A stretch of DNA of 40,035 nucleotides from Amoebophrya sp. A120 (GCA_905178155.1 CAJINV010000025.1:406612-446646), one strand, 5' to 3'; positions 1-40,035 are shown, counted from the stretch's first letter. Numbers and translations: made by a program. Notes: generated by a model not told the origin, from the letters alone.

Positions 1-829
1 TAAAGCTGTAACTTTTTTTTCACGAACGACCAAAAAAGCACAGGACGAATATCGAGCACACCGGTGCAAGCTCGAAAACCCCGGTTAGAGTCAGGCATCT
101 GGGTTTCGTAATCTCTCAGGCGTCGGCGCATTGTTTCTATTCAGATTAGCACCGCAGTACAAGGCTTAACCGCAAGAGGACCACACTCCCTACCAATTTT
201 GAAAGGCGAAAACTTTTGAGCGAGGCACTGCCGCCGATGGTGGGCCAAGTTCTTTGACGTCTGCGAAACGCGATCGAGTTCTAAAAAATAAAAACATCTT
301 ACGCATGCGCCAATCAACTATCAAAAAAGTGTGAGCCTTGTGTAAATTCATTTATTTTCCTAGTTTTTAGTCTCTTGGGTCGTCTTAGTCGGCCACACAA
401 ACGTGTGTGGCTGCGACGGCGGGAGTTGACTCTGCAGGGACCGCTTACGGAGTTAGCCCTGGGTCCCCCAAGCTAGTACTGTAGGAAAGCAAATCGAAGT
501 AGGAGCAATATGAGTCGAACGCTTTACGTTGTACCTAAGTCCCGCGGCGCAGACGAAGAAATGTGAGAAATCAAGTCAGTCGGCTGAGCAAGAACTCAGA
601 GCCATTATATATACAAGAAACGGGCCGCCCCAAGCGGGCGGCCCTCTTGATGCTCGGCGAAGGGGCCGGCAGAATGAGCGAAGATGGCGGGGAGGGCTTG
701 AATTAACTCTATGACCACCCAGAAGCAACGCCGCGCAGCAAGCCGCGCGCGGTGGAGGCGGACGGTGTTGGCTTCCATCCAAGCGGGCCCCCCGGCTTCT
801 GACAGGGAGGCCATGCGCCCGGTGGCGAG

Positions 830-1099: not shown

Positions 1100-3660
1100 C
1101 CCGCCCCGTCGGGGAATCCTCGGTGGAGGGCCATCGCGACCGCATTCAATTTGGAACCCAGAGGCCCATTATCCTAGCCCCGCCGCAAGGGTCCGGCCTG
1201 CCTGCGACTGAAGAAACGACGCCCAAGAAAAAAGGCGAGCAGCCGGCCCGCCATTTCAAGTGGGAAAAACAGGGAGACCCTGCGGCCCATTAGCAGCAAG
1301 CCCCCCGCACGGCTCGCCGGGGTGTCTTCGGATGCATGTGGGAGCGAGGGCGTCACTGCAACGAACCCCGTTCAATTTTGGCCCCTGCGGTCCATCAAAG
1401 CGCCTCCCTCGTCTTGGCGTTCGGTTTCTTCGCGACTGAAGAAGTGGCGCCCGAGAAAAAAGGCGAAAAGTCGGAAGGGAGGCCATTTGAAAGAAGGTGA
1501 CGGGGGCCCTAAGGCCCCTGAAAAAGTCCCCTGTCGGGTCGTCGGGGCTTCCCGGGTTGGGGGTCATCGCAACCCCATCCGACTGCAGCCCCCTGTCTGG
1601 ATGTTTGGTCTGCGAGTTAAGAAACAAACGGGGCCCAGGAAAAAAGGCGAGCACCCAGGCAGCCATTTTGAACGGGGTTGGTAAGGGGACCCCTAAGGCC
1701 CACTAAAAAAGGACCTCTGAGGCCCACTAAAATAAAAAGTCCCCCCCTGGGTCGTCGGGGCTTCCCCTGTTGGGGATCATCGCAAGCGCAACCGATTTTG
1801 GCCCCTCGGGCCCACTAAAAAACGCCCTTTCTGGGTGTTCGGTTTGCGACTGCTGAAACGGGGGGGCCCAAGAATAAAGGCGAGCACCCGGCTAGCCACT
1901 TCAAACGGGGCAAATCAAGGGGACCCCGAAGGCCCATCAAAATGTCACCGGCTGGGCCATCGGGAATTGCTCGGCTGGGGGTCATCCCAACCCCAAACAA
2001 TTTCGACCCCTCGGGCCCACTAAGAAATCCGTCGTCTGGATGCTCCGTCGTCAACAATTCCAAGGGAAAAGACCAAAAATCCCAAAGGGGGGAAGGCGGG
2101 GGGAATACGGGAAGGGCTTTGCCATTCCAACTCCATGCGAGCGATTTCGGCCCCTCCCTCAGGCCCATTGAAAAGCCCCCCTTTCAGGGCCGCACGACTT
2201 TCGTCATTATTAGCGCCGGAACTGTAGCAGTCAGCTCGACGCCCCTCCCTCAGGTTGTTCCGAAGTAGGCGGGGGATGTTCCGAAGCAGAGAAAAAACCA
2301 AACAACCCCGACCCCAAAAGCCCCCGGCGCCCCCCCCCGCGGTTGTCTTTCGTTTCAGCATGGACGCGGAAAGGGCGCATGGCCTGGAAACCCCTCCGCT
2401 GCCTGGGTGTTCCTATTTTTTTGGCCAGCAAATCCATAAAAGAAAAAAGTCGAACAGCCGGCCAAGAAAAGGCGAACACGAAGCGCGGACAGACAAAAGC
2501 GAAAAGGCCGGCCAACCATCTCAAACGGGGTATGTAAGGGGATCCCCAAGGCCCACTAAAATAATAGCCCCGCTTTGGGTCGCCGGGCGAGGTTTCCTCG
2601 GACGATTGGGGGTCATCCCAATCTCAACCGATTTCGACCCTTAGGGCCCACTAAAAAATCCTCTTTCTGGATTTTCGGTTTGACTGTTGAAACGGGACCC
2701 AAGAAAAAAGGCAACCACCCGGCCAGCCATTTCAAAAGGGGAAAGGGGACCCCTTAGGCCTACTAAGCAGCCCCCTCTTGGGCCGCCGGGGTTTCCTCGG
2801 TTCGGGGTCATCGCAACCCCAATCGATTTCGACCCCTGAGGCCCACTAAAAAACCCCCTTTCTGGGTGTTCGGTTTGCGACTGCTGAAACGGGGCCGAAG
2901 AAAAATAAAAGACGAACACCCGGCCAGCCATTTTAAACGGGGTAAGGGGGCCCCGAAGGCCCACTAAAAAGTCCCCTGTTGGGTCGCCGGGGTTTCCTCG
3001 GTTCGGGGTCATCGCAACCCCAATCGGTTTCGACCCCTAAGACCCACTAAAAAACCCCCTTTCTGGGTGTTCGGTTTGCGACTGCTGAAACGGGACCCAA
3101 GAAAAAAGGCGAACACCCGGCCAGCCATTTTAAACGGGGTACGTAAGGGGGCCCCGAAGGCCCACTAAAAAGCCCCCTGTTGGGTCGTCGGGGTTTCCTC
3201 GGTTCGGGGTCATCGCAATCCCAATCGATTTCGACCCCTAAGGCCCACTAAAGAGCCCCCTTTCTGGGTGTTCGGTTTGCGACTGCTGAAACGGGACCCA
3301 AGAAAAACGGCGAACACCCGGCCAGCCATTTCAAACGGGGTAAGGGGCCCCTAAGGCCCACTAAAAAGTCCCCTTTTGGGTCGTCGGGGTTTCCTCGGTT
3401 CGGGGTCATCGCAACCCCAATCGATTTCGATCCCGAAGGCCCACTAAAAAATCCCCTTTCTGGGTGTTCCGTTTTCAATAATTCCGAGGAAAAGGGCCAG
3501 AAATCCCAAAGGGGGGGGGATAGCGGGAGGGAATGCGGGGGGGGTTGGGGGGGGGTTGCCATTCCAACCCCATGCGATTTCGACCCCTAAGGCCCTATAT
3601 AAAATCCCCTTTTCAACAGCAAAGAATTGTCATCATTATTAGAACTGTAATTTATCATTA
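1100..3660. repeat. Diverged ~200-bp tandem satellite organised as two larger blocks
   Basis: Motif GGGGTCATCGCAACCCC..GATTTCGACCCC..GGCCCACTAAAAA recurs (TCGCAA at 2811, 3012, 3213, 3409; spacing 196-201). Both blocks end in the same ~160-bp tail (2057-2213 and 3480-3640). Confidence 0.85.
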
Positions 3661-4381: not shown

Positions 4382-4590
4382 TATCGCAAGAAAGAACTGT
4401 TTCACTGTAAACCTGTGACGCAGAGAACGAAACACCAAAGTGTTTGTCTTGCTACACCTGCAACGCAATGGCTTTTTAAGCGTGTTTTCCCTTGGGAAAC
4501 GCGCATGGCAAATTTTCTGTGTCATGTGTAAGAAACTTGTGATGCAGATCTTGCAAAACCATCACAGTGAAGCAGTTTTTTCGTGGGATA
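4382..4590. mobile_element. TIR element, family D
   Basis: TATCGCAAGAAAGAACTGTTTCACTGT...ACAGTGAAGCAGTTTTTTCGTGGGATA; flanks AGTTG/TGTTG. Confidence 0.8.
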
Positions 4591-4650: not shown

Positions 4651-4974
4651 TATCAAAGTGAAAAAAGCCCCCACCCCATATCGGAAACGGAAGATTCGCG
4701 AATTTGTGATGCTGTATTTGAGTACACAAATCGACGTGTATTGCTAGAAGGCCAAGAGACGAAGCTGCGGCCTAAATTGCAGGCAATCTGTCATGCTGTT
4801 TCCCACTTCCAGTTGCCTCCTGTCATCCTGGCGCTGCAAGGCTTTCCCACGTTAGGCAGCACTACAGTCCGGCGCATCTTTTGCCTTCTAGCATCACAAA
4901 GCTGATTTGTGGCCACAAATCTGCATCACAGATTTCCGTTTTGATATGGGGAGGGGGCATTTTTAATTGTAATA
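4651..4974. mobile_element. TIR element, family B
   Basis: TATCAAAGTGAAAAAAGCCCCCACCCCATATC...GATATGGGGAGGGGGCATTTTTAATTGTAATA; direct repeat TCCTC. Confidence 0.9.
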
Positions 4975-10989: not shown

Positions 10990-13900
10990 ATGATCATGTT
11001 GCGCATCGGAGGACTCGCCGCGCTTTATTTTTTCAGCGGCCTCTCAACAACGTTTGCGCTCGGGATGAAGTTGTACGGCCAACGCATTTATCAAGTGCAA
11101 ATATGTCTGGGTCTGGAAGATTCTGCGACTTGTCATGCATGTCTGACATGACTCGAGAATCTGTGATGCGTGGGCACGAACCGGCTCTCCTATCTGTCAC
11201 GCAAAAACGCAGTTTCTCATGTGGAATACGCAACACGTACCCGCTCAAAAATTTGTCATGCTTGGCTGCGTATTGCAGTCCGGCTATCATCCAGTGTAGC
11301 ATTAAGTACAAGTTTCCAGACCCAGACATATTTGCAATTCATAGCATTAGCACCTTCAAGGAGCGTACTTTCCTGCAGCAGGAAGAACAAGAAGCACAAG
11401 GTCGGCTACACATGCTATTGCAAGGAAAAATCCCCCCTCCCCATTTTGAACGCGCATCCTGCTGAAAATTTGTGACGCAGATTTGTGACCACAGATCGCG
11501 TCTGTCTTGCAAGAAGGCACATTCAGGCCGTCCGCTCTTTTAGCAACGTTAAATAATAGAACGTTACTATGCAGGCGCTCTGTAGAAATGCTGTAAGCGT
11601 AAGGCCCACAGAGTGCGTAGCCGTCTACCATGCTAGGCGCCTACACCAAAAGACCCTCGCCTAGGCTGGCTTAGGATCTACTGCGTGCCGTCCTTTACTG
11701 CAATAGTACGCATCTGTTGACTTCTTGTGTACTCAAGTCCAGCATCAGAAATTTTGATTTGATATGGGGAGGGGGGATTATTTTTGGTTGTATTACAGGG
11801 ATCTCAACGGTGCTTGTGGATCTCAACGTTGAGACCTCACAGCTCAACGTTGAGAAATATATCTCAACGATCAGCAGTGGTTTAGGGTTTCGGGTTTAGG
11901 ATTTGGGGTTTAGGGTCGTCGGGCAGGGCAGCCGCGGCTGCCCTGCCCGACGATTCTCTCGTCGCCTCCCTGCGCTCTTGTTGCCCGGTACGTTGTGCGC
12001 GGCCCGTTGCCTTGTGTGCCCTGTGTCCCACTATGCGTGGAGCCTTCGCGCGTTTTTCTGAGTATCTATGAGCCCGCTCGCTGGCAGGACCTCTGAGAGG
12101 TTTGCTGCGGGGGCTTGGTGCGCACCTTCACGCCATGCAGTTCTTCTGTGTGCAGACCGTTGAGACCAGTCGTTGAGCTCATCGCGAATCCGTTGAGGCG
12201 TCTCAAAGCGTTGAGGCGCGACCGTTGAGATTCACTCGTTGAGATTCCTGTATAACAACCATTATTTTTCCTTTCGATGCATGCACGAACAGCATCACGA
12301 GTTTCTTGCTGATCCTTCTACTCCTTCTTGCCCAGACCAAGCACCGAGAGTGTTCGTGTATGGCTTTCCGCCCAAGGAGTTACTGAGTCATATGGTGTTC
12401 TCAAACGTTCCGTTCTCAGCTTCTGTTACATGATTTGTCATGCAAAATGACCATGAGCCGCCAAACGATCAAGCTGCTTCGCAAGACAAATTATCGCCGG
12501 GCTAAACAGCATCTAAATTATCCGTGCCAAATTTGTGATGCAAGACTTGCAAGCTTGCCCCTTTCCCTATTGCTGTTTTTGCATCACAAATTCGTGTAAC
12601 AGTTGAGGATGTAACATTTGAGAACTCCATAAGTCACGGGACACGTGACATCGTTTGGCGGGAGGATGCGTACTGCGAAAGAGAATTACCGTCTGGCTCG
12701 GCCGAGGAGCGCGATTGCGTCTTCGGTCCGGAGTTCTCCGTTACGATCGATTCGCCGCCAGCCAACGTGACGCTCCGTGCCACTGACCAGTTTCGAAATG
12801 GCCGCATCTTCCAATCCCGCCTGGTGCGCTCAGCTTGCAGAGTCACAGATCCCACACGCGCCGATGTGTTTTTCGTGCCCATTTGGCGCGAGAATTACAA
12901 AGTGAACCGCACCGAGTGCCCGACGGAAGACGAAGTTTTGGCTGCTCTTCCCTACTTGTCCGACGAAACGGCGAGCAAGCACTTTCTGATGTCTCCGCGT
13001 GTCGGGGGATTGTGGGATGACGTGTGCCCTTTTTGGAATAGCGAGAAGCCGCTGCTCCAGAAAATCCGAAAGATGGCCCTGGAAGACACAGCCTGCGGCA
13101 AGGAGGACCGGCCGGAGCGTTCTATTCCGTATCCGACCCTCGGTGGCGGTTTGAACAGTACGCAACTCGCCCACCTGTTCGCCGTCGCCGATAAAGCGCA
13201 GGAGACCGGCAGGGAATTTCTAGTCATGGCCACTCTGGGGAAACGCGTTGGCATATCAAAAGGAAAAATCCCCCCTCCCCACATCAAAACGAGATTTCTG
13301 ATGCTGGATTTGAGTGCACAAATCAGGTTTGTATTGCAGGAAAGCATTGCAGTCAGATCCCCAGGCTAGGCAGGGGCGTATGCGTCTAGTTGTTCAGCAT
13401 GGCAAGCGGCTCCCCTTTAGGCCCAATAGCATGACAAATCGCTTCCATAGTGTGGCGGAAGCTTCTGCCGTTGTCTTCTTGCAATACAAATGTGATTTGC
13501 GACCTCAAATCAGCAACGCAAATTTTCGAAAACATACCTTTTCGATATGGGGAGGGGGGATTTTTGCTTTTGATATGGCATCTCCTCTGCGCGCGTGCGC
13601 GACGTTTGGAATCAACACTGCCACGACAGCGACCATTGTATTGCGGTGGACCCCACGGTATCAAATGTAAAAATGTCTGGGTCTGGAAGATTCCGAGATT
13701 TGTCATGCAGTTTTTCCAAGCTCCACAAAGTCTGGAATGCAGGGCCTAGCATCACAGGTTCTGCAGCCCCTTGGTGATGCCCATTATGCATGAGAAATGC
13801 CCTCTGAGGATGCCGAGAAATGGGGACCTTTTGCAATTCATGCGAACACAGATTTTTGTATCATCCGCAACACGCATCACAAGTTCGCATTCTTCCAGAC

Positions 13901-15108
13901 CCAGACATTTTTACATTTGATACACGGTGGCAGGCATGCTCCCTGGGTTGGTCCAAGCCATGATGAAGTCCACCTTTTGCTTGCAGCCGGAAGGAGACAC
14001 TCCGTCTCGCAAGGGGATGCTGGACAGCTTGGCGCTGGGATGCATTCCGGTGCTTTCGTCCCGGAAACAGCACACGCTGTGGCGTTGGCATCTGGGAGAC
14101 CACGACTGGGAAGATTTCTCTGTGCTGGCGCCAGATTCCACGCAGGCGGCACACTCAACCACTAGGGGCAATAAACCCACCCAGCCGGGGCAAAACCACC
14201 CAGATACAACCCCGGGGCAAAACGACCACCCAGCCGACGATATCAAATGTAAAAATGTCTAGGTCTGGAAGAATGCAACTTGTGATGCTGCGTCTGCATT
14301 ATCCGAAAATCTGTATTGCATGAACAGCAGAAGAGGTCTGGTTTTGGCCACGGCGAGAGGGCATTTCTCATGCGGTATAGGCATCAGAAAGCCCTGCTCA
14401 CAAGACCTGTGATGCTAGGGCATGCATCGCAGACATCAGTCATGCAAAATGTGCATGACAAACCTTGCATCCTTGCAGACCCAGACATTTTTGCAGTTGA
14501 TAGGCGAGGACGGGGGGCAAAACCACCCAGCCGAAGAGGACGGAAGGCAAGACGAGCAAGACCAATCAACTGTCGGCAAGGGGCCAACATCGCAACGTTC
14601 GTTATCAAATGTAAAAATGTCTGGGTCTGGAAGATTGCCAGGTTTGTCATGCACATTTTGCATGACTCCTGATGTCTGTGATGCATGCCCTAGCATCACA
14701 GATTTTGTGAGGGCTTCCTGATGCCTATACCGCATGACAAATGCTCTTTCCGTGTAGCAAAACTTGGACTCTCTTTGCTGCTCACGCAATACAGATTTTT
14801 TTAGAATCCAAAAGCAGCATGACAAGTTGGATTCTTCCAGACCCAGACATTTTTACATTTGATGTTCGTGGTGCTGTGGCGATGGCGAGAAGAAATCCCC
14901 TCCAGCGGTGGCGCAGACGCTGATGGAAACTGGATCGTCCGGCGTCAACAACATCGTAGAGTTCCTGGAGACCATCAACGCGACCACGATCGCCGAACTG
15001 CGGGCCGGCGTGCGGAGTGCGCGGGAGAAAATCATCACGCACTGGACCGACACCGACTTGAACGACGCAATTACGGTCACGCTGAAAGCCATACAGGATG
15101 GCAAATGA
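10990..15108 (+). CDS. Exostosin-family (GT47) glycosyltransferase with N-terminal signal peptide/anchor, ~537 aa, split by 7 TIR elements. Exons 10990-11088, 11349-11415, 12285-12390, 12637-13253, 13581-13658, 13928-14240, 14508-14602, 14870-15108
   Basis: Joined exons total 1614 nt with no internal stop. They read MIMLRIGGLAALYFFSGLSTTFALG..RVFVYGFPP..TDQF..CRVTDPTRADVFFVP..SIPYP..STFCLQPEGDTPSRKGMLDSLALGCIPV..WEDFSV..NDAITVTL, which are GT47 motifs in the expected order. Confidence 0.92.
11089..11343. mobile_element. Family A TIR element acting as intron
   Basis: TATCAAGTGCAAATATGTCTGGGTCTGGAA...TTCCAGACCCAGACATATTTGCAATTCATA; repeat GCATT. Confidence 0.93.
11416..12279. mobile_element. 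Family B TIR element acting as intron; right TIR split by a nested element
   Basis: TATTGCAAGGAAAAATCCCCCCTCCCCAT...ATGGGGAGGGGGGATTATTTTT[insert]CCTTTCGATG; repeat CATGC. Confidence 0.9.
11786..12260. mobile_element. Nested non-autonomous element with 9-bp TSD (Mutator-like)
   Basis: TSD ATTATTTTT (11777-11785, 12261-12269). TIR GGTTGTATTACAGGGATCTCAACG / CGTTGAGATTCCTGTATAACAACC. Subterminal TCTCAACG/CGTTGAG repeats. Confidence 0.88.
12391..12631. mobile_element. Family E TIR element acting as intron
   Basis: TATGGTGTTCTCAAACGTT...AACATTTGAGAACTCCATA; repeat AGTCA. Confidence 0.9.
13254..13575. mobile_element. Family B TIR element acting as intron
   Basis: TATCAAAAGGAAAAATCCCCCCTCCCCACATC...GATATGGGGAGGGGGGATTTTTGCTTTTGATA; repeat TGGCA. 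Confidence 0.95.
13659..13922. mobile_element. Family A TIR element acting as intron
   Basis: Perfect TIR TATCAAATGTAAAAATGTCTGGGTCTGGAAGA; repeat CACGG. Confidence 0.96.
14241..14502. mobile_element. Family A TIR element acting as intron
   Basis: Family A TIRs; flanks GACGA/GGCGA. Confidence 0.92.
14603..14864. mobile_element. Family A TIR element acting as intron (interior opposite to 14241-14502)
   Basis: Family A TIRs; repeat TTCGT. Confidence 0.93.
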
Positions 15109-15149
15109 AGACGAAGAGGAGAAAATGTTTTAAATGAAAAACACGGCTA

Positions 15150-15406
15150 TATCAAATGCAACTATGTCTGGGTCTGGAAAGAAAGTTGGAACTTGTAATG
15201 CTAGCTTTACATTCCTGGAATATCTGTATTGCATAACCGACAAAAGGAGATTTTTGTCATGCAAAAACGCAGTTTCTCATGACATGCGGGCTGCCTATGA
15301 GAAAGTGCTCCGAAAAGTTGTCATGCTGCTCTGCATTCGGAACTGTTTCCATCATGCACATTTTAGCATCACAAGTTTCCAGACCCAGACATATTTGCAT
15401 TTGATA
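15150..15406. mobile_element. Family A TIR element downstream of the stop codon
   Basis: Family A TIRs; CGGCT on both sides, with one extra A on the left. Confidence 0.88.
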
Positions 15407-15444
15407 CGGCTTTACTGTCTACTACAACCCGTACGCCAGCGGCT

Positions 15445-15777
15445 TATGCTGAGGAAAAATCTCCCCTCCCCATATTGAAAGCGCATCCATCTGAAAACTT
15501 GTGATGCAGATTTGTGACCACAAGTGATCGCGTCTGTCTTGCAAGACGGCAACTTCAGGCTGTCCGGCACGTTATCCAGGCGATTTGTAATGGTGTAGGG
15601 CCTACAGGGCAGCCGTCTACCATCGACTAGGCGCCTATACCAAAAGGCCCCTGCCTAGGCTTGCGATCTGCGTGCAGTGCTCTACTGCAACACAAGTTTG
15701 ATTTGTCTTTGTGTACTCAAATACAGCATCACAAATATCGTTCTCGATATTGGGAGGGGTGATTTTTCCTTTTGATA
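15445..15777. mobile_element. Family B TIR element
   Basis: TATGCTGAGGAAAAATCTCCCCTCCCCATAT...ATATTGGGAGGGGTGATTTTTCCTTTTGATA; repeat CGGCT. Confidence 0.88.
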
Positions 15778-16389
15778 CGGCTCATCTACATCATCCTTGC
15801 GTTGCTGAGGACCTTAAGGCGTTGGATATCTATCACTGTCTGTTGGTTTTACTTATTATCATTGACGTATTTTGAAAAAATTGCTTGTAACAACAAAACT
15901 TCTTCGCTCTACCAGTTCTGTTTTTCTCAAGAAAGAGCACAAAGTGGCTCAGTCTTCTATCTGGTATTTTTATTCATCTTGAAATAGCGCTAGAATGGTC
16001 AGCACACGAGAGAAGAAAACCTTCACCCGGATCATTCCGTGTATCCAATATGAACAAACAACCAAACAGCTTTTCATTTGCATTTTCTTCTATTGATCAT
16101 CATGGTTCGAATTCAATTTTGTATGGTCTTGACCGACCAGCATGTAGTTTTTGCTTTATTAATAATTCGGAACTACTAGCCTGGTCGTCGTTGGGGTCGC
16201 GACCACATTCTACTTTCACTAATTGTAATTTTTGTACTAGTTTCGGTTTATCTTCATTCCGACCGCATGATAGAAGTACACATAAACAAAATGCAAACCT
16301 GTCTATGGAAGCGTCAGGATTGAAATCGTCAAAGTTGAATTTGAAAAAAAAAAAATGCATAAAATGCAACCCACAAAGCGCCTGTCTTG

Positions 16390-16988
16390 CAGAGTAGGCA
16401 AGGGAGGCATATTGCAAGCCTGTTGAGGGGTAGAAATAGAGCTGCTGAAGTAGCATGACAAAAGGCGTCTTCCTTTTACCCAAACAGCATTACAAACTGG
16501 ACTTAGACACCACCAAAACTTGTCATGCGCCATTTCTAAACTGGGCTCCAACTGGCATCCATTTTATGCATGACGAACTATTTCAACTCTGACAAATTTC
16601 AAACCTGACACATCCATATTGTCTGGCTCTGAAAATAAGAAGTTGTGAAAAATTCGTAGAACAGCAAGATGGTTTCTGCTACACGGAGTGAGAGGCATTT
16701 GTCATGCGGATTAGGCATAAGGAACTACAAGCATACCTAATTCATAGAGTGTGACAGACCACGACGACATCAAACTGACCGCTACCAGAAATAAAAGTAG
16801 CCAGTGGCATGATGAGAAATTCATTTTGCAGGGCGTCCATTTTTAGCCTCTACGAAAACAAGATGTGAATGAATACGCATACGCACGAAACTCGGCAAGC
16901 ATTTCCTGCATGACAGAGGTTGTCTGTCTTGCTTGTCTTTCATCAGAGCGTGTACTTCTAAGTGTAACACTTCTTATTTCTCACGATA
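16390..16988. mobile_element. Cluster of eroded A-, B- and D-like element remnants
   Basis: TGTCTGGCTCTGAAA (~16620), A-like interior GGCATTTGTCATGCGGATTAGGCAT, and D-like end GTAACACTTCTTATTTCTCACGATA (16988); no matched pairs. Confidence 0.5.
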
Positions 16989-17815: not shown

Positions 17816-20800
17816 ATGGCCGCCGCCAAAGCGAATGCGAACATGGCCCGACTACACAAGCACAGCGCGACTCTTCTCGGGGACCGCCTGTACGCAGCGG
17901 TGCGGATATGAAATGTAAAAATGTCTGGGTCTGGAAGAATGCAACATTTGTGATGCAGGTTTTCCATGACCCATGAGGCCGCGCATGCAGGACCTAGCAT
18001 GACAGATTCTGCGCGATCTCTCTCATGCCTTTCCTGCATGAGAAACTCCCTCCCGACTTGGTCAAAACTGGACGACTTTTGGTAATCATGCAACACAGAT
18101 TTTTGCATGCTTCAGATTTAGCATGACAAGTTGCATTCTTCCAGACCCAGACATTTTTACTATTGATAGCGGAGTGGCGACGGCAAATCCACGACATGCT
18201 CCTCCTCCTTACCTATGAACTGCAAAAGTGTCCTGCTGCTCGTATAAATGCATGACAAATCCCCTCAGCATGAGAAATAAAATTTGTAATGCGGATTTAC
18301 ATTGGGAAAAAAATTTGTAATGCACGACTGCAATACGAGTACTGTCACTGTGCGATACTTTTGCACAGGATATTACCCCGCCGATTTTTCAAGAAGCTGA
18401 AAAGCGGGACGAAACAGCTTTTCCTAAATTCTCGGTCACCGGCTGCGGCAGCGCGAGTAGGCGCGATATCTCCTCCCGACAGCGACGATCGGTTGCCACC
18501 GACACTGTACCGGGTGAAGAATATTGCATTTTCCGAGAAGCCGGGGAAAACCAGCAGGGAGGCGAGTGCGGCCGTGGGTAAAAATAGAGAGCAGGGTCCA
18601 GGAGCAAATTCCTATACCACCGATAGCACACCCACAGGTGATCCTTCCCCGCTATCGACTGTAAAAATGTCTGGGTCTGGAAGGGCCAAACTTGTGCTGC
18701 TGTATTTGGATGCTAAAAAAACCTGTATTGCATGACCAGCAAGAGGATTCAAATTTGGCTACGCGGAGACGGCATTTGTCTTTGTCATGCTGGATGCGCA
18801 TAGATAAGCGCTCAAAAAATCTGTGATGCTATGGCATACATCACAGACATCATGACTCATGAAAAATGTGCATGATAAAGTTGTGCTGTTCCAGACCCAG
18901 ACATTTTTGCATTTGATACCCGCCCGACGGAGCCAACATTTGTTCGGCACCGGTACTATTTTCCATCCCTGTCTACGGGCGGAACAAAAACACGCTGCTT
19001 CCGAGCACGCCCGTCGCGGTAGGAAATTGCAAATCTCTCTGAGTCTGGAAGAATGCAGAAGTTAGTCATACTGCTTTTGCATGACCGAGGACGGCTTGTA
19101 TGCAGGAGCAGGCGGCAAAATTTTTTTGTTTTCTCGACAGGGCATCTCATTAGCATTCCTGCATGAGAAATTCCCGTATTTGGGTGACAAAAGGTCGTCG
19201 TCGTGGATGAGAGATTTTTGTCTGTGCAACTGCTTTAGCTGGCCAGGCATGACAGATTTTTGTGATGTCTCTTAAAATGCGCGTCTTCACAAGTTTGAGT
19301 ATTCGCGCTTCAGACCTCCCAGATGACAGATTTGCAATGCATCGGCGTTCCTGAAACCCAACCAGGTGGTGCAGGTGTTGCCGCACGCGCTAAGGATCTG
19401 TGATGAGGAGCTAACGGAGGACAATTTGAGGAACTACAACTCGGGCATCGCCGGTTTGGAAAATGCAAAGTGGAAGCAGTTTTGGCTGGACACGCACCGA
19501 GGAGCAGGAGCCGCAGCCGCTTCCTCCTCTCCGTCCAGCTCGTCCTCTGTGGCGCCTGTAAATGTAATGAAGGACCACGGGGGCCAGCAAATGAGTTGTG
19601 AACAAGGAGGGAAAAAAAACCTCCCTGTGCAGACAGGCCACGAACCCGAAGTGGTAGAAGCAAGGACGAGCGAAACATCGTCAAGACGGGAAGGTGCAGA
19701 AACGCTTTCTCACCCCGCCCTCACTCCACCGTCTCCGTGGATCCCGGTTCGCATCGCGCCGGACGCCATGGAGGTGCTTACCATGCCGAACACGGTCGGC
19801 GGCATGACACTATCACGAGGAAAAACTCCCCCTCCCCATAATCTTCAAACGGAAAGTTTTCAGTACTGCTCTGTGGCGAGAGATCAGCTTTGTCCACGCA
19901 AGAAGGCAAGCAAAGATAAAGATAAAGTAATTTGCTCGCTTGCTTTTCTTGAGCGTACAGGGCAGGCGCAGCCTTACGGCGACGGACAAGCGCGGCGCGG
20001 ACGCGCCGCCGCTTCGCAGTGATCGAGAGGCGGCGAGGCCGGTGCGCTTCGATGGTCGTGCGTGCATTCCTGCAATCTTCGTCGCGGGGCAAAATTTTAC
20101 CCGTGCAGGCCGGCATTTTGCTGGCGGTTTTTTTGCCCGCGCTTTTTTGCCGTCGTGATGTTTTTAGCGAGGCTAATCTGGCGACCCTGCTTTCGCTGTG
20201 CCTTAGTAGCAAACCTACTTGAGGAGCCTACTCGCAGGGCCGTGGGAGCGAACCCACCCGAGCGCTCCACTTGCAGCGCCTTCAGAGCGAACCCGGCCGA
20301 GCAAGCCAAAAACGCAACAACAACGCAACAACAACTCCACAACAACTCCACAACAACTCCACAACAACTCGACAGCAACTCGACAGCAACTCGACAACAA
20401 CGCAACAACAACTCGACAACAACGCAACAACTACGCAACAACTACGCAACAACAACGCAACAACAACGCAACAACAACGCAACAACAACGCAACAACAAC
20501 GCAACAACAACGCAACAACAACCCAACAACAACCCAACAACATACAACTCAGCCCGTAGCCAAAAAAAAAGCCTGGCAAGGGCGGGAAAGCGTGCGCGCT
20601 CTCCTTTTTTTATCCACCCAAAAAAGTAAAAGGAGAGATATTCCGGGCGGTCCAACAAAAGCAGAGATATTCGGGGCGGTCCGGCAGAAGTGGAGACATT
20701 CGGAGCGGTCAAGCAGAAGGAGAGATATTCGGGGTGGTCAGGCGAAAGCGGAGATATTCGGAGCGGTCAGGCAAAAGTAGAGATATTCGCAGCGGCCGAA

Positions 20801-23800
20801 CCAGTAAAAGTAGAGATATTCGGGGCGGTCAAACAAAAGTAGAGATATTCGGGGCGGTCAGGCAAAAGTGGAGATGGGCGGTCGAGCAAGAGTAGAGAGA
20901 TTCGGGGCGGTCAGGCGAAAGCGGAGATACTCGGAGCGGTCAAGCAAGAGGAGAGATACTCGCAGCGGCCGAACAAGTAAAAGTAGAGATATTCCGGGCG
21001 GTCAAACAAAAGTAGAGATATTCGGGGCGGTCGGGCAAAAGTGGAGATATTCGGAGCGGTCAAGCAAAAATAGAGATACTCGCAGCGGCCGAACGCGTAA
21101 GCGTAGAGATATTCCGCGCGGTCGAACAAAAGTAGAGATATTCGGGGCGGTCATGCAAAAGTGGAGATATTCGGAGCGGTCAAGCAAGAGTAGAGATATT
21201 CGGGGCGGTCAGGCGAAAGCGGAGAAATTCGGAGCGGTCAAGCAAAAGTAGAGATATTCGCAGCGGCCGAACCAGTAAGAGTAGAGATATACCGGGCGGC
21301 CAAAGAAAAGTAGAGATATTCGGGGCGGTCGGGCAAAAGTGGAGATATTCGGAGCGGTCAGGCAAATAAAAGCAGAGATATTCGGGGCGGTCAGGCGAAA
21401 GCGGAGATATTCGGAGCGGTCAAGCAAAATTAGAGATATTCGCAGCGGCCGAACAAGTAAGAGGAAAGATATGCCGGGCGGTCAAACAAAAAGCAGAGAT
21501 ATTCGGGGCGGTCAGGCAAAAGCGGAGATATTCGGAGCGGTCAAGCAAGAGTAGAGATATTCGGGGCGGTCAGGCGACAGCGGAGATATTCGGAGCGGTC
21601 AAGCAAAAGTAGAGATATTCGCAGCGGCCGAACAAGTAAAAGTAGAGACATTCCGGGTGGTCATTCAAACAACAGTAGAGATATTCGGGGCGGTCAGGCA
21701 ACAGTGGAGATATTCGGAGCGGTCAAGCAAAAGCAGAGATACTCGGGGCGGTCAGGCGACAGCGGAGATATTCGGAGTGGTCAAGCAAGAGTAGGGATAT
21801 TCGCAGCGGCCGAACAAGTAAAAGTAGAGACATTCCGGGCGGTCAAACAAAAGAAGAGATATTCGGGGCGGTCAGGCAACAGTGGAGATATTCGGAGCGG
21901 TCGAGCAAAAGTAGAGACATTCGGGGCGGTCAGGCGAAAGCGGAGATATTCGGAGCGGTCTTCGGGGGGGGCGGTCAGGCAAAAGTGGAGATATTCGGAG
22001 CGGTCAAGCAAGAGTAGAGATATTCGGGGCGGTCAGGCGAAAGCGAAGATACTCGGAGCGGTCAAGTAAAAGTAGAGATATTCGCAGCGGCCGAACAAGT
22101 AAAAGTAGAGATATTCCGGGCGGTCAAACAAAAGAAGAGATATTCGGGGCGGCCCGCCAGGCAAAAGGGGAGATATTCGGAGCGGTCAAGCAAAATTTGA
22201 GATATTCGGGGCGGTCACGCGAGCGCGGAGATATTCGGAGCGGTCAAGCAAAAGTAGAGATATTCGCAGCGGCCCAACAAGTAAGAGTCGAGATATTCCG
22301 GGCGGTCAAACAGCAGCAGAGATATTCGGGGCGGTCAGGCAAAAGTGGAGATATTCGGAGCGGTCAAGCAAAAGTAGAGATATTCGGGGCGGTCAGGCGA
22401 GAGCGGAGATATTCGGAGCGGTCAAGCAAAAGGAGAGATATTCGCAGCGGCCGAACAAGTAAAAGTAGAGATATTGCGGGCGGTCCGTCAAACAAAGTTA
22501 GAGATATTCCCTCGGGGCGGTCAGGCAAAAGTGGAGACATTCGGAGCGGTCAGACAAAAGTAGAGATATTCGGGGCGGGCAGGCGACAGCGGAGATATTC
22601 GGAGCGGTCAAGCAACAGTAGAGATATTCGCAGCGGCCGAACAAGTAAAAGGAGAGAGATTCCGGGCGGTCAAGCAAAAGTAGAGAAATTCGGGGCGGTC
22701 AGGCAAAAGCGGAGATATTCGGGGCGGTCAGGCAAAAGTAGAGATATTCGGGGCAAGCGTAGAGATATTCGCAGCGGCCGAACAAGTAAAAGTAGAGATA
22801 TTCCGGGCGGTCAAACAAAAGGAGAGATATTCGGGGCGGTCAGGCAAAAGTGGAGATATTCCGAGCGGCCAAGCAAAAGGAGAGACTTTCAGGGCGGGCA
22901 GGCGAAAGAGGAGATATTCGGAGCGGTCAAGCAAAAGTAGAGAGATTCGCAGCGGCCGAACGAGTAAAAGGAGAGATATTCCGGGCGGTCAGACAAAAGT
23001 AGAGATATTCGGGGCCGTCCGGCAAAAGTGGAGATATTCGGAGCGGTCAGGCAAAAGTAGAGATACTCGGGGCGGTCAGGCGAAAGCGGCGACATTCGGA
23101 GCGGTCAAGCAAAAGTAGAGATATTCGCAGCGGCCGAACAAGTAAAAGTAGAGAGATTCCGGGCGGTCCGTCAAACAAAAGTAGAGATATTCGGGGCGGT
23201 CACTCACTCAGGCAAAAGGGGAGATATTCGGAGCGGTCAGGCAAAAGTAGAGATATTCGGGGCGGTCAGGCGAAGGCGGAGATATTCCTTCGGAGCGGTC
23301 AAGCAAAAGTCGAGATATTCGCAGCGGCCGAACAAGTAAAAGTAGAGATATTCCAGGCGGCCACTCAAACAAAAGGAGAGATATTCGGGGCGGTCAGGCA
23401 AAAGCGGAGATATTCGGAGCGGTCCAGCAAAAGTAGAGATATTCGGGGCGGGCAGGCGACAGCGGAGATATTCGGAGGGAGCGACCAAGCAAAAGTAGAG
23501 ATATTCGCAGCGGCCGAACAAGTAAAAGCTGAGATATTCCGGGCGGTCAAACAAAAGTAGAGATATTCGGGGCGGTCAGGCAAATAAAAGCGGAGATATT
23601 CGGAGCGGTCAGGCAAGAGTAGAGATATTCGGGGCGGTCAGGCGACGGCGGAGATATTCGGAGCGGTCAAGCAAAAGTAGGGATATTCGCAGCGGCCGTC
23701 CGAACAAATAAAAGTAGAGATATTCCGGGCGGTCAGACAAGTGTAGAGATATTCGGGGCGGTCAGGCAAAAGTGGAGACATTCGGAGCGGTCAGGCAAAA

Positions 23801-26800
23801 GCAGAGATATTCGGGGCGGGCAGGCGAAAGCGGAGATATTCGGAGCGGTCAAGCAAAAGTAGAGATATTCGCAGCGGTCGAACGAGCAAAAGTAGAGATA
23901 TTCCGGGCGGTCAAACAAAAGCAGAGATATTCGGGGCGGTCAGGCAAAAGTGGAGACATTCGGAGCGGTCAAGTAAAAGTAGGGACAGATACTCGGGGCG
24001 GTCAGGCGACAGCGGAGATATTCGGAGCGGTCAAGCAAAAGTAGAGATATTCGCAGCGGCCGAACCCGTAAAAGTAGAGATATTCCGGGCGGTCAAACAA
24101 AAGTAGAGACATTCGGGGCGGTCAGGCAAAAGTGGAGATATTCGGAGCGGCCAAGCGACCGTAGATATATTCGGGGCGGTCACGCGGAAGCGGAGATATT
24201 CGGAGCGGTCAGGCAAGTCAAGAGCAGAGATATTCGCAGCGGCCGAACAAGTAAAAGCTGAGACATTCCGGGCGGTCAAACAAAAGTAGAGATATTCGGG
24301 GCGGTCAGGCAAAAGTGGAGATATTCGGAGCGGTCAGGCAAAAGTAGAGATATTCGGGGCGGTCAGGCGAAAGCGGAGATATTCGGAGCGGTCAGGCAAA
24401 AGTAGAGATATTCGGGGCGGTCAGGCGAAAGCGGAGATATTCGGAGCGGTCAAGCAAAAGTAGAGATATTCGCAGCGGCCGTCTCCGAACAAGTAAAAGT
24501 AGAGAGATTCCGGGCGGTCAAACAAAAGTAGAGATATTCGGGGCGGTGAGGCAAAAGTGGAGATATTCGGAGCGGTCAGGCAAAAGTAGAGATATTCGGG
24601 GCGGTCAGGCGAAAGCGGAGATATTCGGAGCGGTCAAGCAAAAGTAGAGATATTCGCAGCGGCCGTCTCCGAACAAGTAAAAGTAGAGAGATTCCGGGCG
24701 GTCAAACAAAAGTAGAGATATTCGGGGCGGTGAGGCAAAAGTGGAGATATTCGGAGCGGTCAGGCAAAAGTAGAGATATTCGGGGCGGTCAGGCGAAAGC
24801 GGAGATATTCGGAGCGGTCAAGCAAAAGTAGAGATATTCGCAGCGGCCGTCTCCGAACAAGTAAAAGTAGAGAGATTCCGGGCGGTCAAACAAAAGTAGA
24901 GATATTCGGGGCGGTGAGGCAAAAGTGGAGATATTCGGAGCGGTCAGGCAAAAGTAGAGATATTCGGGGCGGTCAGGCGAAAGCGGAGATATTCGGAGCG
25001 GTCAAGCAAAAGTAGAGATATTCGCAGCGGCCGTCTCCGAACAAGTAAAAGTAGAGAGATTCCGGGCGGTCAAACAAAAGTAGAGATATTCGGGGCGGTG
25101 AGGCAAAAGTGGAGATATTCGGAGCGGTCAGGCAAAAGTAGAGATATTCGGGGCGGTCAGGCGAAAGCGGAGATATTCGGAGCGGTCAAGCAAAAGTAGA
25201 GATATTCGCAGCGGCCGTCTCCGAACAAGTAAAAGTAGAGAGATTCCGGGCGGTCAAACAAAAGTAGAGATATTCGGGGCGGTGAGGCAAAAGTGGAGAT
25301 ATTCGGAGCGGTCAGGCAAAAGTAGAGATATTCGGGGCGGTCAGGCGAAAGCGGAGATATTCGGAGCGGTCAAGCAAAAGTAGAGATATTCGCAGCGGCC
25401 GTCTCCGAACAAGTAAAAGTAGAGAGATTCCGGGCGGTCAAACAAAAGTAGAGATATTCGGGGCGGTGAGGCAAAAGTGGAGATATTCGGAGCGGTCAGG
25501 CAAAAGTAGAGATATTCGGGGCGGTCAGGCGAAAGCGGAGATATTCGGAGCGGTCAAGCAAAAGTAGAGATATTCGCAGCGGCCGTCTCCGAACAAGTAA
25601 AAGTAGAGAGATTCCGGGCGGTCAAACAAAAGTAGAGATATTCGGGGCGGTGAGGCAAAAGTGGAGATATTCGGAGCGGTCAGGCAAAAGTAGAGATATT
25701 CGGGGCGGTCAGGCGAAAGCGGAGATATTCGGAGCGGTCAAGCAAAAGTAGAGATATTCGCAGCGGCCGTCTCCGAACAAGTAAAAGTAGAGAGATTCCG
25801 GGCGGTCAAACAAAAGTAGAGATATTCGGGGCGGTGAGGCAAAAGTGGAGATATTCGGAGCGGTCAGGCAAAAGTAGAGATATTCGGGGCGGTCAGGCGA
25901 AAGCGGAGATATTCGGAGCGGTCAAGCAAAAGTAGAGATATTCGCAGTGGCCGAACGAGTAGCAGCAGAGATATTCCGGGCGGTCAGACAGCAGTAGAGA
26001 TATTCGGGGCGGTCAGGCAAAAGCGGAGATATTCGGAGCGGTCAAGCAAGAGGAGAGATATTCGGGGCGGTCACGCGAAAGCGGAGACATTCGGAGCGGT
26101 CAGGCAAAAGTAGAGATATTCGCAGCGGCCGAACAAGTAAAACTATCTAGACAGAGATATTCCGGGCGGTCGAACAAAAGTAGAGACATTCGGGGCGGTC
26201 AGGCAAAAGTGGAGATATTCGGAGCGGTCGAGCAAAAATAGAGATATTCGGGGCGGTCAGGCGAAAGCGGAGATATTCGGAGCGGTCAAGCAAAAGTAGA
26301 GACTGATATTCGCAGCGGCCGAACAAGTACAAGTAAAAGTAGACATATTCCGGGCGGTCGAACAAAAGTAGAGATATTCGGGGCGGTCAGGCAAAAGCGG
26401 AGATATTCGGGGCGGTCAAGCAGAAGTAGAGATATTCGGGGCGGTCAGGCGAAAGCGGAGATATTCGGAGCGGTCAAGCAAAAGGAGAGATATTCGCAGC
26501 GGCCGAACAAGTAAAAGTAGAGACTGATACTCCGGGCGGTCAAACAAAAGTAGAGACATTCGGGGCGGCCAAGCAAAAGCGGACACATTCGAAGCGGTGA
26601 AGCAAAAGCAGAGATATTCGGGGCGATCACGCGAGAGTGGAGATATTCGGAGCGGTCGAGCAGAAGTAGAGTCAGTCCGTTGATTTTGCGTTCCAATGAA
26701 TGTGGGGCCATTTCTGGAAGACCAGGCCCCAGTTTCAGAAGCTTGCTATTGAGTAAAGGGGAGGGGGGTCTTTCATTTTAACATTTGCCCAAGCTGCACT

Positions 26801-29800
26801 ACGTCGACGGGATGATCAAAGCGGAGCACTTTTTTCCTGCAGGGGTAGAATTCAATCAGGAGGGGCTTCCACTTCGTGGGGCGGCACCCTCCGCGCATGT
26901 CGTCTTCGAGCCCGCCGCCCTGCAGTATCAAGTGCAAATATGTCTGGGTCTGGAAGAGTGTAGACTTGTCACGCAGATTTTCCATGACCCACAATGTCTG
27001 GAATGCGGGACCTAGCATGACAGACTCTGCGAGGTCTCTGTCATGCCTATCCTCCATGAGAAACTCCCTCCCAAGTTGGTCGAAAGTGGACTGCTTTGGG
27101 CTCTCATGCAACACAGATCTTTGCATGATTCACATTTAGAAGCATGATAAGTTGCAATCTTCCAGACCCAGACATATTTGCAATCCATATGCAGATGAGC
27201 GACGCGATCTACGCCCGGCTGCCCTTCACGTATCAAATGTAAAAACGTCTGGGTCTGGAAACTTGTGATGCTGGGTGGCGTATCATGAGGAGGCCACAAG
27301 AGCTGGCCAAGCATGACAAGTTTTTGAGCTCCTAGGTGTTGCCTATTCCGCATGACAAACTGCGTTTCTGCATGACAGAAAAATGAGGCTCTTGGGTAAC
27401 ATGCATGACAGATTTAAGAGTCATGCCAGACAAGCATGACGAACACACATTCTTCCAGACCCAGACATTTATTTTTACATTTGATATCACGCCCATGCAC
27501 GCCATCTACCAGACCGTGCTTGACTTTGTCGAGCGTAAGTTCTTCCCCGCACAAAGAAGTCAGGAACCACCCGCGTCGGCCCCCGGCGGCGGTAGTGCAA
27601 TTGTAACAGGAAGCACTACAACTGCTACTACTGCAGCTAGTACCCCCGCCGCGAGTACGAGAACTGCCACGACCCCGCCGCCCGTCTGGTCAGAGAAGCT
27701 CCGCAGAAAAGACAGCAGAGCGGCTGGCGTAGACGCTACCGGCTCCGAGCACCAGAGCCAGATGACTTATGATCTTCTACATGAAAGTCTCACGGAAGCG
27801 CAGCGGTCCTGGCTTTCCTTCCGAGTGTGGTTTGACGACATGGCGGCGGAATACTACGACGGCGTGATTGCGTATGGAAAGAAAAAAATTCGTCGCAGTC
27901 CCTAATACTATAATCTTGCAACCTGTGCATGACAGGAGATTCACCTGGCGTTACAGCTTTTTCTATGTATCATTCCGCAAACACAAGGGGAGTCGCGTAT
28001 GAAGTCTAGTCTTGCCTTGTGATGCTGCATTTCTACCCATGATGAGAGACAGCTTCGTGTTAGAAGAATCCGTATGAGTCGTGATCCTGATCGTGACAAA
28101 TTTTGTTTCGTGCATATTGCGGGGCCGGGCCGGTCGCGTGGTAGTCCTGGTCAAACGCAGTACATTCTGCAGCGCGCGCCCGGAAATGTGCCCGAGCGAA
28201 TGGAGATTACTGAGGAGCTATCAAATGTAAAAATGTCTGGGTCTGGAAGAATCCGAAATTTCTTATGCTGTTTTTGCATGACACAGAATGTCTGTCATGG
28301 AAGCCCTAGCATCACAGATCTTGCCTTCCTGATACCTATTCCGCATGACAAATGCCCTCCACGCGTAGCACAAACCGGACTCCTTTTGCTGGTCATGCAC
28401 TACAGAATTTTTTAGAGTCCAAAGTTAGCATCACAAGTTCCAACCTTCCAGACCCACACATTTTTGCAATCCATAGGAGCAGATTGTTTTTGACCAGGAC
28501 AGAAAGCAGCGGCACAAATTCTTCGGAAGGATCGGTCTCTTTTTCACGTTTTATCAAATGCAAAGATGTCTGGGTCTGGAAGAATGCAACTTGTGATGCT
28601 GCGTTTCGATTCCAAAAAAATCTGTATTGCATGAGCAGAAAAGGAAATGCAATTTTTGCTACGCGGAGCGGGCATTTGTCAGGCGGAATAGGCACCGAGA
28701 AGCCCTCAAAAAATCTGTGATGCTGGGGCACGCATCGCAGACGTCATGGCTCATGCAAAACGTGCGTGACAAGTCTTAGAACCTTCCAGACCCAGACACT
28801 TTTGCACTTGATACTTTCTGCTACTCGACAGTGGCCTACTTGCGGAATCGGCGGAGCCGAAACATGGCCGTGCGGGACTGCGTACGGCAAGAAAGGGCAA
28901 AAATGCAGGACGAAGAGGATCAACATCTTGTAGCGGACAGAAGACGCGACCGCACGGAGTGGAACGACAAAAACGGCGAAACACTCACAAAAGCGGATCG
29001 TGGCAATGACCCAGAAGCAGTAGAGCGTATCCCTCGCAAACATAATCGATCTGGATCTGAGAGATTGTAGATGGATTCTAATTCTTGCAGAAGTTTCTAA
29101 ATGCAGCTTTTCAGTGCGCCATGAAACGGTCGCTCAACTTGAGGACCGCTAGTGGGCAAGACCTTGTTTATTTCCACTCATGATCACGCAGCACGGAAGA
29201 TTTTTGTGTCCTGACGCTGCAAGGGGAATGTCACAGGACTGGATGAACATCTTTCAGACAGCCCGGGAAGTACTAGATGTTTGCAATGCATAGAACAAGA
29301 GGTCTATGGAGAGAAAAAAGTTTGTCACAGTCACTAAGTTGCAGGTTTTGCATTGCAAATTTTTTTTGCATCACAACTTCTTCTTGTATTGCAGAAACAC
29401 TAGGGAAATCCCTTATGAAGTGTGGCTGTGATGCATTTTTACGCATGACAGACAATTTTGTCTTGCAAAAATGCCCATGGGTGATCGTGGCGAACTTTTT
29501 TCTTTTCATAAGGTCCTGCACTTCGACCAGTTTCCAGCTCTTCTCCGGCCCCCGGTGGAAGCGGATCCATTTTACCTGAGCGAGATATGAATTGCAAAAG
29601 TGTCTGGGTCTGGAAGAATGGCAGACTTGTCATGCAGGTTTTCCATGACCCATCAGGTCTGGTATGTAGGACATAGCATGACAGATTCAGATTCTGTGAG
29701 AGCTCTATCATGCCTATCCTGCATGAGAAACTGCCTCGCGATTAGGTCAAAAGTGGACAGCTTGTGGTAATCATGCAACACAGGTGTCTTTTTACATGAT

Positions 29801-30607: not shown

Positions 30608-31673
30608 GGATGAAAAAATAGATAGGGAAAAAATAACAGCGTAGATGTAGTACGTCTTCCACATCAAGGCTCGCTGCAGCAAACGGTAGTGACCCCTTCT
30701 GGTCAAAGTCAAAGTGAAGTCGTCCACGGTTCAAGTGGTCCGTGCAGCAAAATATTAACATAGAGTTCCTTTCATTTTACGCCGTACTTGTAAAAGTGTC
30801 AATCGATATCGATGGTACTGTTGTACATGGTGCAGTTCTTCTTTCCTCCACCTGTGTTCTTCGAACGATATTAGAAGCGTGGTTATTCTAAGAGTCTTCC
30901 TGAAGATTGCCTTGCAACAATGATGCTTTCAACATTCAAATCGGATCCACCCTGCCTGCAACATCAGCATCACCTGGCAGTATTAAAAAACAAAGATATC
31001 ATCATCATCACTCACAACCACAAGAAGGATCATCATCACGTAGCGCAGCAGCGCAGGCTTTCTAAGCACCATGGAAGCCGTGCCAAGTCCGCCTTTCATC
31101 AACATCACACTCGCAATTCAACAATCTTTTACAACCGCCCGGCGTTACGCCCGTGTCTACTCTTCACTTGCATGCACATGTTGTAGCTCTTGGTAGTAGT
31201 TCTTGTACAACATATACGAAGAGGAAACTTGGGCAATGTGTAGAAAAAGTACTTTCATGCACCCGACTCCGCCACCTTTTTTTTCCACTACTTGTTCTAG
31301 ATTTTCTTCCTATTTTTCCACGCACAAATCAAAACGAAAACATAATTGGTTGATGCTAGAATTATGCACAGTCGAATCCAGTGGTATAATCTTTTAGTAA
31401 CGAATGATGTACATCACAGGCCGGCAACGAAGATCTCGATCTCGAAAGTTTGTTTGGAAAGGTGGACATCAATAACTCTGAAACAAGGAAGAACGACTTT
31501 TAGGCAAGGCGGAGGTGTAGTTGTACTTGTACTTGACGGGGAAAACATTGAAAATGTCCGTGTGACGTTGATTGTCGCCGTCGGTACTCAGTTGATGTAA
31601 TACGAAAGCCAAAGAAATTCTGCTGAAGAACCGCACAAAGAAATTGATTCATCTTCGCGACAAGATCAAGAAC

Positions 31674-39788: not shown

Positions 39789-40035
39789 ACAAGTCTTAGA
39801 ACCGTCCAGACCGAGACACTTTTGCACTTGATGCGTTTTGCTACTCGACAGTGGCCTACTTGCGGAATCGGCGGAACCGAAACGTGGCCGTGCAGGACTG
39901 CATACGGCAAGAAAGGGCAAAAATGCAGGACGAAGAGGATCAACATCTTGTAGCGGACAGAAGACGCGACCGCACGGAGTGGAACGACAAAAACGGCGAA
40001 ACACTCACAAAAGCGGATCGTGGCAATGACCCAGA
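39789..40035 (+). repeat. Near-identical duplicate of 28769-29015 (right TIR of a family A element plus following exon), running off the window
   Basis: Same sequence at an offset of 11020 bp with a few substitutions. Confidence 0.93.

What the first reader, a model, noticed from the sequence alone, without database searches (positions are those of the whole stretch)
10990..15108. GT47/exostosin gene as internal proof: seven removals rebuild a recognisable enzyme
Seen: fragments from separate ORFs join into one 537-aa protein with a signal peptide, VFVY..PP, ADVFFVP and STFCLQPEGDTPSRKG..DSLALGCIPV in family order. Elements of three families (A, B, E) interrupt it, with TIRs ranging from perfect to diverged, yet no exon has a stop or frameshift. 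Inference: the gene stayed under purifying selection through several insertion waves, which a TE-killed pseudogene would not.
Basis: partly seen in the sequence, partly recalled or inferred. Interest (0 to 1): 0.85.

Follow-up and report, generated by a model that had tools for sequence, protein, structure and literature searches.

The report
Amoebophrya gene with seven hairpin introns
A sugar-transferase gene of the marine parasite Amoebophrya is interrupted by seven transposon-like, hairpin-ended inserts without normal intron ends, all seven missing exactly from assembled sequences that are likely RNA; this is real, but the gene and this intron class are already published.

Summary
The window is Amoebophrya sp. 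A120. Removing seven TAT…ATA elements plus one 5-nt direct repeat each gives a 537-aa protein identical to a protein already deposited in NCBI. Pfam GT47 runs as one stretch across three junctions. Contigs of one run (RNA guessed) join all 7 of 7 junctions at the predicted length. None of 42 possible registers is GT-AG or GC-AG. These are the non-canonical introner elements of Farhat et al. 2021 (PMC7789003).

The 'internal proof' is weaker than claimed. Removing any insertion with one target duplication restores the frame, my own wrong join was also stop-free, and a dead gene at 1.5-3% decay stays stop-free 18-43% of the time. dN/dS could not be run.

One lead goes beyond the text I read. A single informative junction places the cut 1 nt before and 4 nt after the hairpin; my second test was inconclusive. 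The scan noted similar introns in two other genomes. Verdict: already known, low interest.

The parts
10990..15108 (+). GT47/exostosin-family gene, 8 coding exons, 537 aa, identical to deposited Amoebophrya sp. A120 protein P0001. Exons in the -1/+4 register: 10990-11087, 11348-11414, 12284-12389, 12636-13252, 13580-13657, 13927-14239, 14507-14601, 14869-15108 (borders can slide within the 5-nt repeats)
   Evidence: Pfam PF03016 aa 77-391, 79.7 bits vs cut-off 33.4
11089..11343 (.). I1, family A element, exact 5-nt direct repeat; 260 nt removed
   Evidence: joint 11083>11344 in X1
11416..12279 (.). I2, family B element (380 nt without the nested insert), exact 5-nt direct repeat; 869 nt removed
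   Evidence: joint 11410>12280
11786..12260 (.). Nested MITE-like element inside the right TIR of I2, with its own TIRs and an exact 9-bp target duplication (11777-11785 / 12261-12269); Mutator-like by TSD length (recalled rule, not tested)
12391..12631 (.). I3, third family (no other copy in the window at E 1e-3), exact 5-nt direct repeat; 246 nt removed
   Evidence: joint 12385>12632; P0001 and paralogues lack the 25 aa of my first join
13254..13575 (.). I4, family B element, exact direct repeat; 327 nt removed
   Evidence: joint 13248>13576
13659..13922 (.). I5, family A element, TIRs perfect over 32 nt, exact direct repeat; 269 nt removed
   Evidence: joint 13653>13923
14241..14502 (.). 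I6, family A element in the opposite orientation to I5 and I7; direct repeat with one mismatch (position 2); 267 nt removed
   Evidence: joint 14237>14505, both=3; orientation from blastn
14603..14864 (.). I7, family A element, exact direct repeat; 267 nt removed
   Evidence: joint 14596>14864
15150..15406 (.). Family A element behind the stop codon, with one extra base between the left repeat and the TIR; the one junction that fixes the cut register (-1/+4)
   Evidence: joint 15148>15411, both=0; only 1 of 6 registers fits and a repeat-guided cut does not
15445..15777 (.). Family B element behind the stop codon, opposite orientation to I4, exact direct repeat
   Evidence: joint 15439>15778

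Best explanation
This is an Amoebophrya A120 GT47 glycosyltransferase gene whose seven MITE-like insertions are missing exactly from contigs that are likely RNA, so they likely act as non-canonical introns removed by hairpin-guided splicing. Shown: anatomy, joined junctions, identity with the deposited protein, no GT-AG or GC-AG ends, and removal in both orientations. Inferred origin: non-autonomous DNA transposons inserted with a 5-bp target duplication. Predicted: the terminal repeats pair in the pre-mRNA and bring the ends together. Inferred from one junction: the cut falls 1 nt before the stem and 4 nt after it, so the exons keep 4+1 bases, exactly one target copy, and every insertion is scarless whatever the target sequence. 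Untested: the catalyst. I favour the U2/U5/U6 spliceosome working without U1 (about 55%) over a structure-specific endonuclease plus ligase (about 35%).
For: 7 of 7 coding junctions and 2 of 2 downstream elements are joined in X1 contigs, with skips equal to core+5 for the seven. X1 has zero depth in unique stretches of 26600-32860, where run X2 has even depth of about 42-57 on most listed pieces and one contig runs unspliced through element 27873-28116, so X1 behaves as RNA and X2 as DNA. X6 contigs remove nine elements of neighbouring genes at core+5 (one directly in each of two contigs, seven by length sums). Join = P0001, and the paper's gene models were built on transcripts (PMC7789003 section 25). 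Terminal stems are predicted in all seven, including I2 with its nested insert. I6 is inverted relative to I5/I7 yet removed. Conserved sites are spared on this gene's branch. Architecture matches the A120 introners: TAT start, 5-bp repeats.
Against: X1 is only guessed to be RNA, is assembled contigs rather than reads, gives one contig per joint, and may not be independent of the data behind the annotation. The register rests on one contig. In X6 record 18 a piece ends at 29020, which fits only registers -5 to -3 if the contig came from this copy; that contig carries the variants of another copy, so it neither supports nor refutes. The paper calls splice positions relative to the hairpin variable (Fig. 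3 legend). No protein-level evidence.
Confidence: 0.9

Rival explanations
1. The elements are excised from DNA (programmed or frequent somatic excision, as for ciliate IESs), and the joined forms come from rearranged DNA or its transcripts.
For: TIR + TSD anatomy is that of DNA transposons; X1's kind is a guess; the look-up of joined forms in other runs was not given (table 5b).
Against: X2 holds element 27873-28116 unspliced at depth 46.9, like neighbouring unique DNA. X1 lacks unique stretches that X2 covers. The -1/+4 cut is asymmetric with respect to the transcript. Published A120 introns are RNA-seq supported against the genome.
Confidence: 0.04
2. The gene is a recently TE-killed pseudogene, and the joined contigs come from an intron-free paralogue.
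For: Three close paralogues exist (63-71% identity); one paralogue-like contig touches the 3' end (joint 15111>15775 with 23 other letters); a stop-free frame can survive 1.5-3% decay.
Against: The listed X1 pieces on exons have 0 other letters and none of the 19 listed differences lies in an exon. The joints include the low-complexity insert that only this gene has (14237>14505, 92 letters on the short side).
Confidence: 0.03
3. The introns are removed from RNA, but by ordinary spliceosomal recognition in variable registers inside the direct repeat (or after RNA editing of the ends), with the hairpin incidental.
For: Any register inside a perfect repeat gives the same mRNA; the paper reports variable positions and possible editing at 2-4% of boundaries; N-T-A-T at the 5' end resembles a degenerate GTA donor.
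Against: 0 of 42 registers give GT-AG or GC-AG. Both orientations are removed. A TIR remnant and predicted terminal stem persist in I2. The one informative junction fits neither a repeat-guided cut nor five of six registers.
Confidence: 0.2

Closest known systems
Non-canonical introner elements (IEs) of Amoebophrya sp. A120 (Farhat et al. 2021, PMC7789003; read: abstract, sections 11, 12, 16, 25, passages of 10 and 32, supplement legends S19-S25 and Table S4 rows; figures not seen)
   Same: Same organism, same deposited protein; inverted repeats starting TAT, 5-bp direct repeats at the borders, hairpin, 240-330 nt cores, many families (29,850 IEs in 1,954 families reported). Gozashti et al. 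2025 (PMC12130899, passages) note tens of introner introns in single A120 genes.
   Different: Nothing in kind. The text I read leaves the border position unknown or variable and does not mention a -1/+4 register, orientation independence or nested insertions; the figures that I could not see may show these.
Introner-like elements of Polarella glacialis and Symbiodinium (Roy et al., bioRxiv 10.1101/2020.10.14.339549; passages read)
   Same: TIR DNA elements with TSDs that create introns, some in both orientations, with splice sites drawn from TSD or element ends.
   Different: Those need GT/GC/GA and AG dinucleotides from the TSD or element; here no register gives GT-AG or GC-AG and the target is unconstrained (all four bases at each repeat position).
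Nonconventional introns of euglenids and non-canonical introns of Fritillaria borealis (review PMC11282704; passages read)
   Same: TIR-paired ends, TSD-like repeats, non-GT-AG junctions; the euglenid stem is also offset from the cuts (+4..6 with -8..-6).
   Different: Different termini and lineages; Fritillaria has preferred AG-AC/AG-AT ends; euglenid introns carry CAG/CTG stems.
Exostosin / GT47 glycosyltransferases (Pfam PF03016)
   Same: Score above the curated cut-off, model positions 6-279 of 293 in one stretch.
   Different: Substrate unknown; nearest non-Amoebophrya relatives are 30-39% identical; carries a ~60-aa low-complexity insert absent from its paralogues.

Membership tests
Amoebophrya A120 introner elements (Farhat 2021) | Removed from the transcript | tested here: met
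   7 of 7 joints in X1 contigs; RNA nature of X1 is guessed, supported
Amoebophrya A120 introner elements (Farhat 2021) | Non-GT-AG ends | tested here: met
   0 of 42 registers GT-AG or GC-AG
Amoebophrya A120 introner elements (Farhat 2021) | Inverted repeat of 8-20 nt or more, starting TAT, with an A-run about 7 nt later | tested here: met
   All 7 start TAT with 0-3 mismatches in 16 nt; the A-run is present in families A and B and shifted in I3
Amoebophrya A120 introner elements (Farhat 2021) | 3-5 nt direct repeat at the exon/intron borders | tested here: met
   5 nt, 6 exact and 1 with one mismatch
Amoebophrya A120 introner elements (Farhat 2021) | Repeated family in the genome | tested here: met
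   Families A and B have several copies in the window; I3 has none in the window; no genome was available
MITE of a named DNA-transposon superfamily | Cognate autonomous transposase recognising the TIRs | not testable with these tools
   No genome held; the paper reports no transposase in A120, while PMC12130899 attributes some A120 introners to TIR transposons
U2-type spliceosomal intron | GT/GC-AG ends | tested here: not met
U2-type spliceosomal intron | Lariat and branch point; spliceosome dependence | not testable with these tools
   Needs lariat sequencing or inhibition
Exostosin/GT47 (PF03016) | HMM score above gathering cut-off across the domain | tested here: met
   79.7 bits vs 33.4, aa 77-391
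Exostosin/GT47 (PF03016) | Glycosyltransferase activity | not testable with these tools
   No assay; structure not predicted

The most novel reading that the evidence does not exclude
A120 introners are cut by a sequence-blind ruler: 1 nt before and 4 nt after the TAT…ATA stem. This staggered geometry sums to the 5-bp target duplication, so any insertion, in either orientation and even with another transposon nested in a TIR, becomes a scarless intron. It would reduce the 'unprecedented variety' of A120 splice sites to one rule (NT…NN; 9 of 9 predominant A120 sites in the paper's Table S4 have T second, though aligner bias could do this) and point to a hairpin-reading splicing machine without U1.
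Probability: 0.5. Interest if true: 0.62.

Novelty: already known. Interest (0 to 1): 0.22.

Why it matters
As a finding it adds little: the protein is deposited and the intron class was described in 2021. The locus is a clean teaching and test case for an open question, how Amoebophrya removes tens of thousands of non-GT-AG introns with no U1 snRNA detected. It offers natural experiments: an offset repeat that fixes the cut position, inverted copies, and a nested insert in a TIR. If the -1/+4 rule holds genome-wide, annotation of these genomes becomes mechanical and the splicing machine gets a defined substrate.

Tried and rejected
(1) My first join used 12430-12595 as the third element and gave a stop-free 562-aa protein; rejected because P0001, three paralogues and the X1 joint show 12391-12631. 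(2) Keeping both target copies gives frameshifts and stops. (3) Raw RNA runs X10-X12 (same species label) laid only 4, 3 and 1 reads: no evidence either way. No listed holder is on record as RNA. (4) Pre-registered test of the -1/+4 rule on 26600-32860 (note): inconclusive. X1 does not cover those exons. The X6 contig carries five letters matching a second copy, so its start at 28816 is not evidence; its start at 30520 fits -1/+4 or 0/+5 and its end at 29020 fits only -5 to -3 if it came from this copy. (5) dN/dS not run: no genome, and the metagenome scan returned 1 locus of 18 candidate stretches, matching only aa 450-472 of the low-complexity insert. (6) X9 (DNA guessed, estuary metagenome): listed pieces lie only on element repeats. 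(7) Paper searches listed no later study of the A120 splice register; subscription papers (Roy 2023, Henriet 2019) were not seen. (8) The tree groups the four A120 paralogues (100/99) but does not resolve their order; P0001's branch (0.41) is longer than P0002 (0.12) and P0004 (0.22) and like P0003 (0.48), so it gives no clear rate test.

Full report
Identity. The largest exon matched a 537-aa protein at 100% identity, named by its source as an unnamed protein of Amoebophrya sp. A120, plus three paralogues from the same strain. No whole genome was held.

Anatomy. Seven elements interrupt the frame between the ATG at 10990 and the stop at 15108. Each starts TAT, ends ATA or ATG, and sits between 5-nt direct repeats. 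Removing each core with one repeat gives 537 aa identical to P0001; keeping both repeats breaks the frame. The elements fall into three families; I6 is inverted relative to I5 and I7, and I4 relative to the element at 15445. I2 holds a second element with a 9-bp target duplication inside its right TIR. All seven are predicted to pair their two ends, I2 included. No register inside the repeats gives GT-AG or GC-AG, 0 of 42. I listed 33 such elements in the window; 25 have exact repeats against 1 of 1056 cross pairs, but the set was chosen partly on that match.

The protein. Pfam Exostosin_GT47 covers aa 77-391 in one stretch at 79.7 bits; single fragments scored 48.8 and 21.4. The domain spans junctions 3, 4 and 5, where the paralogues align without a break. 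Junctions 1, 2, 6 and 7 lie in poorly conserved parts, junction 6 in a low-complexity insert found only in this copy. At sites where the three paralogues agree, P0001 differs at 2 of 91 sites conserved in distant homologues and at 24 of 144 others (p=4e-4). This shows purifying selection on its branch but does not date it relative to the insertions.

Removal. Contigs of run X1 join all seven junctions, each skipping core+5 nt, and two more elements behind the stop. X1 is only guessed to be RNA. On a second stretch it has no depth in unique sequence, while run X2 covers that sequence evenly and runs unspliced through one element; I read this as X1 = RNA and X2 = DNA. X6 contigs remove nine elements of neighbouring genes at core+5, seven of them deduced from length sums. 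Three raw RNA runs gave next to no reads.

The length, motifs, families and TIR range are right. The inference is not proof on its own. Taking out any insertion with one target copy restores the old frame. My own wrong join was also open with all motifs in order. One mismatch in 35 repeat positions suggests modest decay since insertion, and at 1.5-3% a dead frame stays stop-free 43-18% of the time. The conclusion stands because of the joined contigs and the deposited model.

Known or new. Farhat et al. 2021 (PMC7789003) report that over 60% of A120 introns are non-canonical, that 29,850 are repeated introner elements with inverted repeats starting TAT and 3-5 nt direct repeats, and that U1 snRNA was not detected; a supplement legend shows an example with 5-bp repeats. 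Gozashti et al. 2025 mention tens of such introns in single A120 genes. The finding is one instance of this. I saw text, legends and Table S4 rows, not the figures; Fig. 3 and S19-S25 may already show the register discussed below.

Mechanism and the lead. The element at 15150-15406 has one extra base between its left repeat and its TIR. The X1 joint 15148>15411 fits only a cut 1 nt before TAT and 4 nt after ATA, and does not fit a cut guided by the repeat. I6 allows four of six registers, including this one. All nine predominant A120 splice sites in Table S4 have T second, as this register predicts, but an aligner that favours GT-like donors could produce that. My pre-registered test on two other mismatched repeats was inconclusive because the only covering contig carried another copy's letters, and one of its ends would contradict the rule if it came from this copy. 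I therefore give the fixed register 50%. The working model: the TIRs pair, the machinery cuts at -1/+4, and the exons keep one whole target copy, so insertion is harmless at any site and in either orientation. Whether a U1-less spliceosome or an endonuclease-ligase does it is untested.

Earlier notes of this scan, read after I had formed this view, describe a hairpin-bounded intron in another dinoflagellate and a position-set 3' splice site in another protist; I did not check them. Nothing was on record for this genome or element.

Verdict. Real, correctly read, already known. Interest 0.22; the ruler lead would merit about 0.6 if it held genome-wide.

Noticed in passing
window 15111-15775: An X1 contig joins 15111 to 15775 with 23 other letters between. 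It is likely the 3' end of a paralogue's transcript without either downstream element, i.e. an empty site; P0002 ends in the same 14 residues.
   Followed up: partly
window 26780-30590: Neighbouring gene with ten TAT…ATA elements; removing them gives a stop-free 403-residue frame of unknown family. Three of its elements have two mismatches in their direct repeats.
   Followed up: partly
window 39789-40035: Partial duplicate (96%, 247 nt) of 28769-29015, starting inside an element; the X6 contig carries this copy's letters.
   Followed up: partly
window 35202-36239: A 1038-nt element of another family that contains a stretch like the nested MITE of I2 (84% over 69 nt): a likely second nested insertion.
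   Followed up: no
window 20263-26500, 32871-34784, 1200-3600: Tandem arrays with units of 11 and 29 nt, about 162 nt, and about 200 nt.
   Followed up: no
window 4382-4590, 4651-4974, 16304-16618: TAT…ATA elements with 5-nt repeats outside any gene that I identified; whether they are transcribed was not tested.
   Followed up: no
window about 19020-19340: A degenerate family-A-like element with poorly matching ends between two long frames; a possible further test of how much stem is needed.
   Followed up: no
P0004: A120 paralogue of 1664 aa with a PF04488 glycosyltransferase domain besides GT47: a fusion or a merged gene model.
   Followed up: no
window 14150-14600: Exonic low-complexity insert with repeated GQNHP-like units, absent from all three paralogues but present in the joined contigs.
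   Followed up: partly
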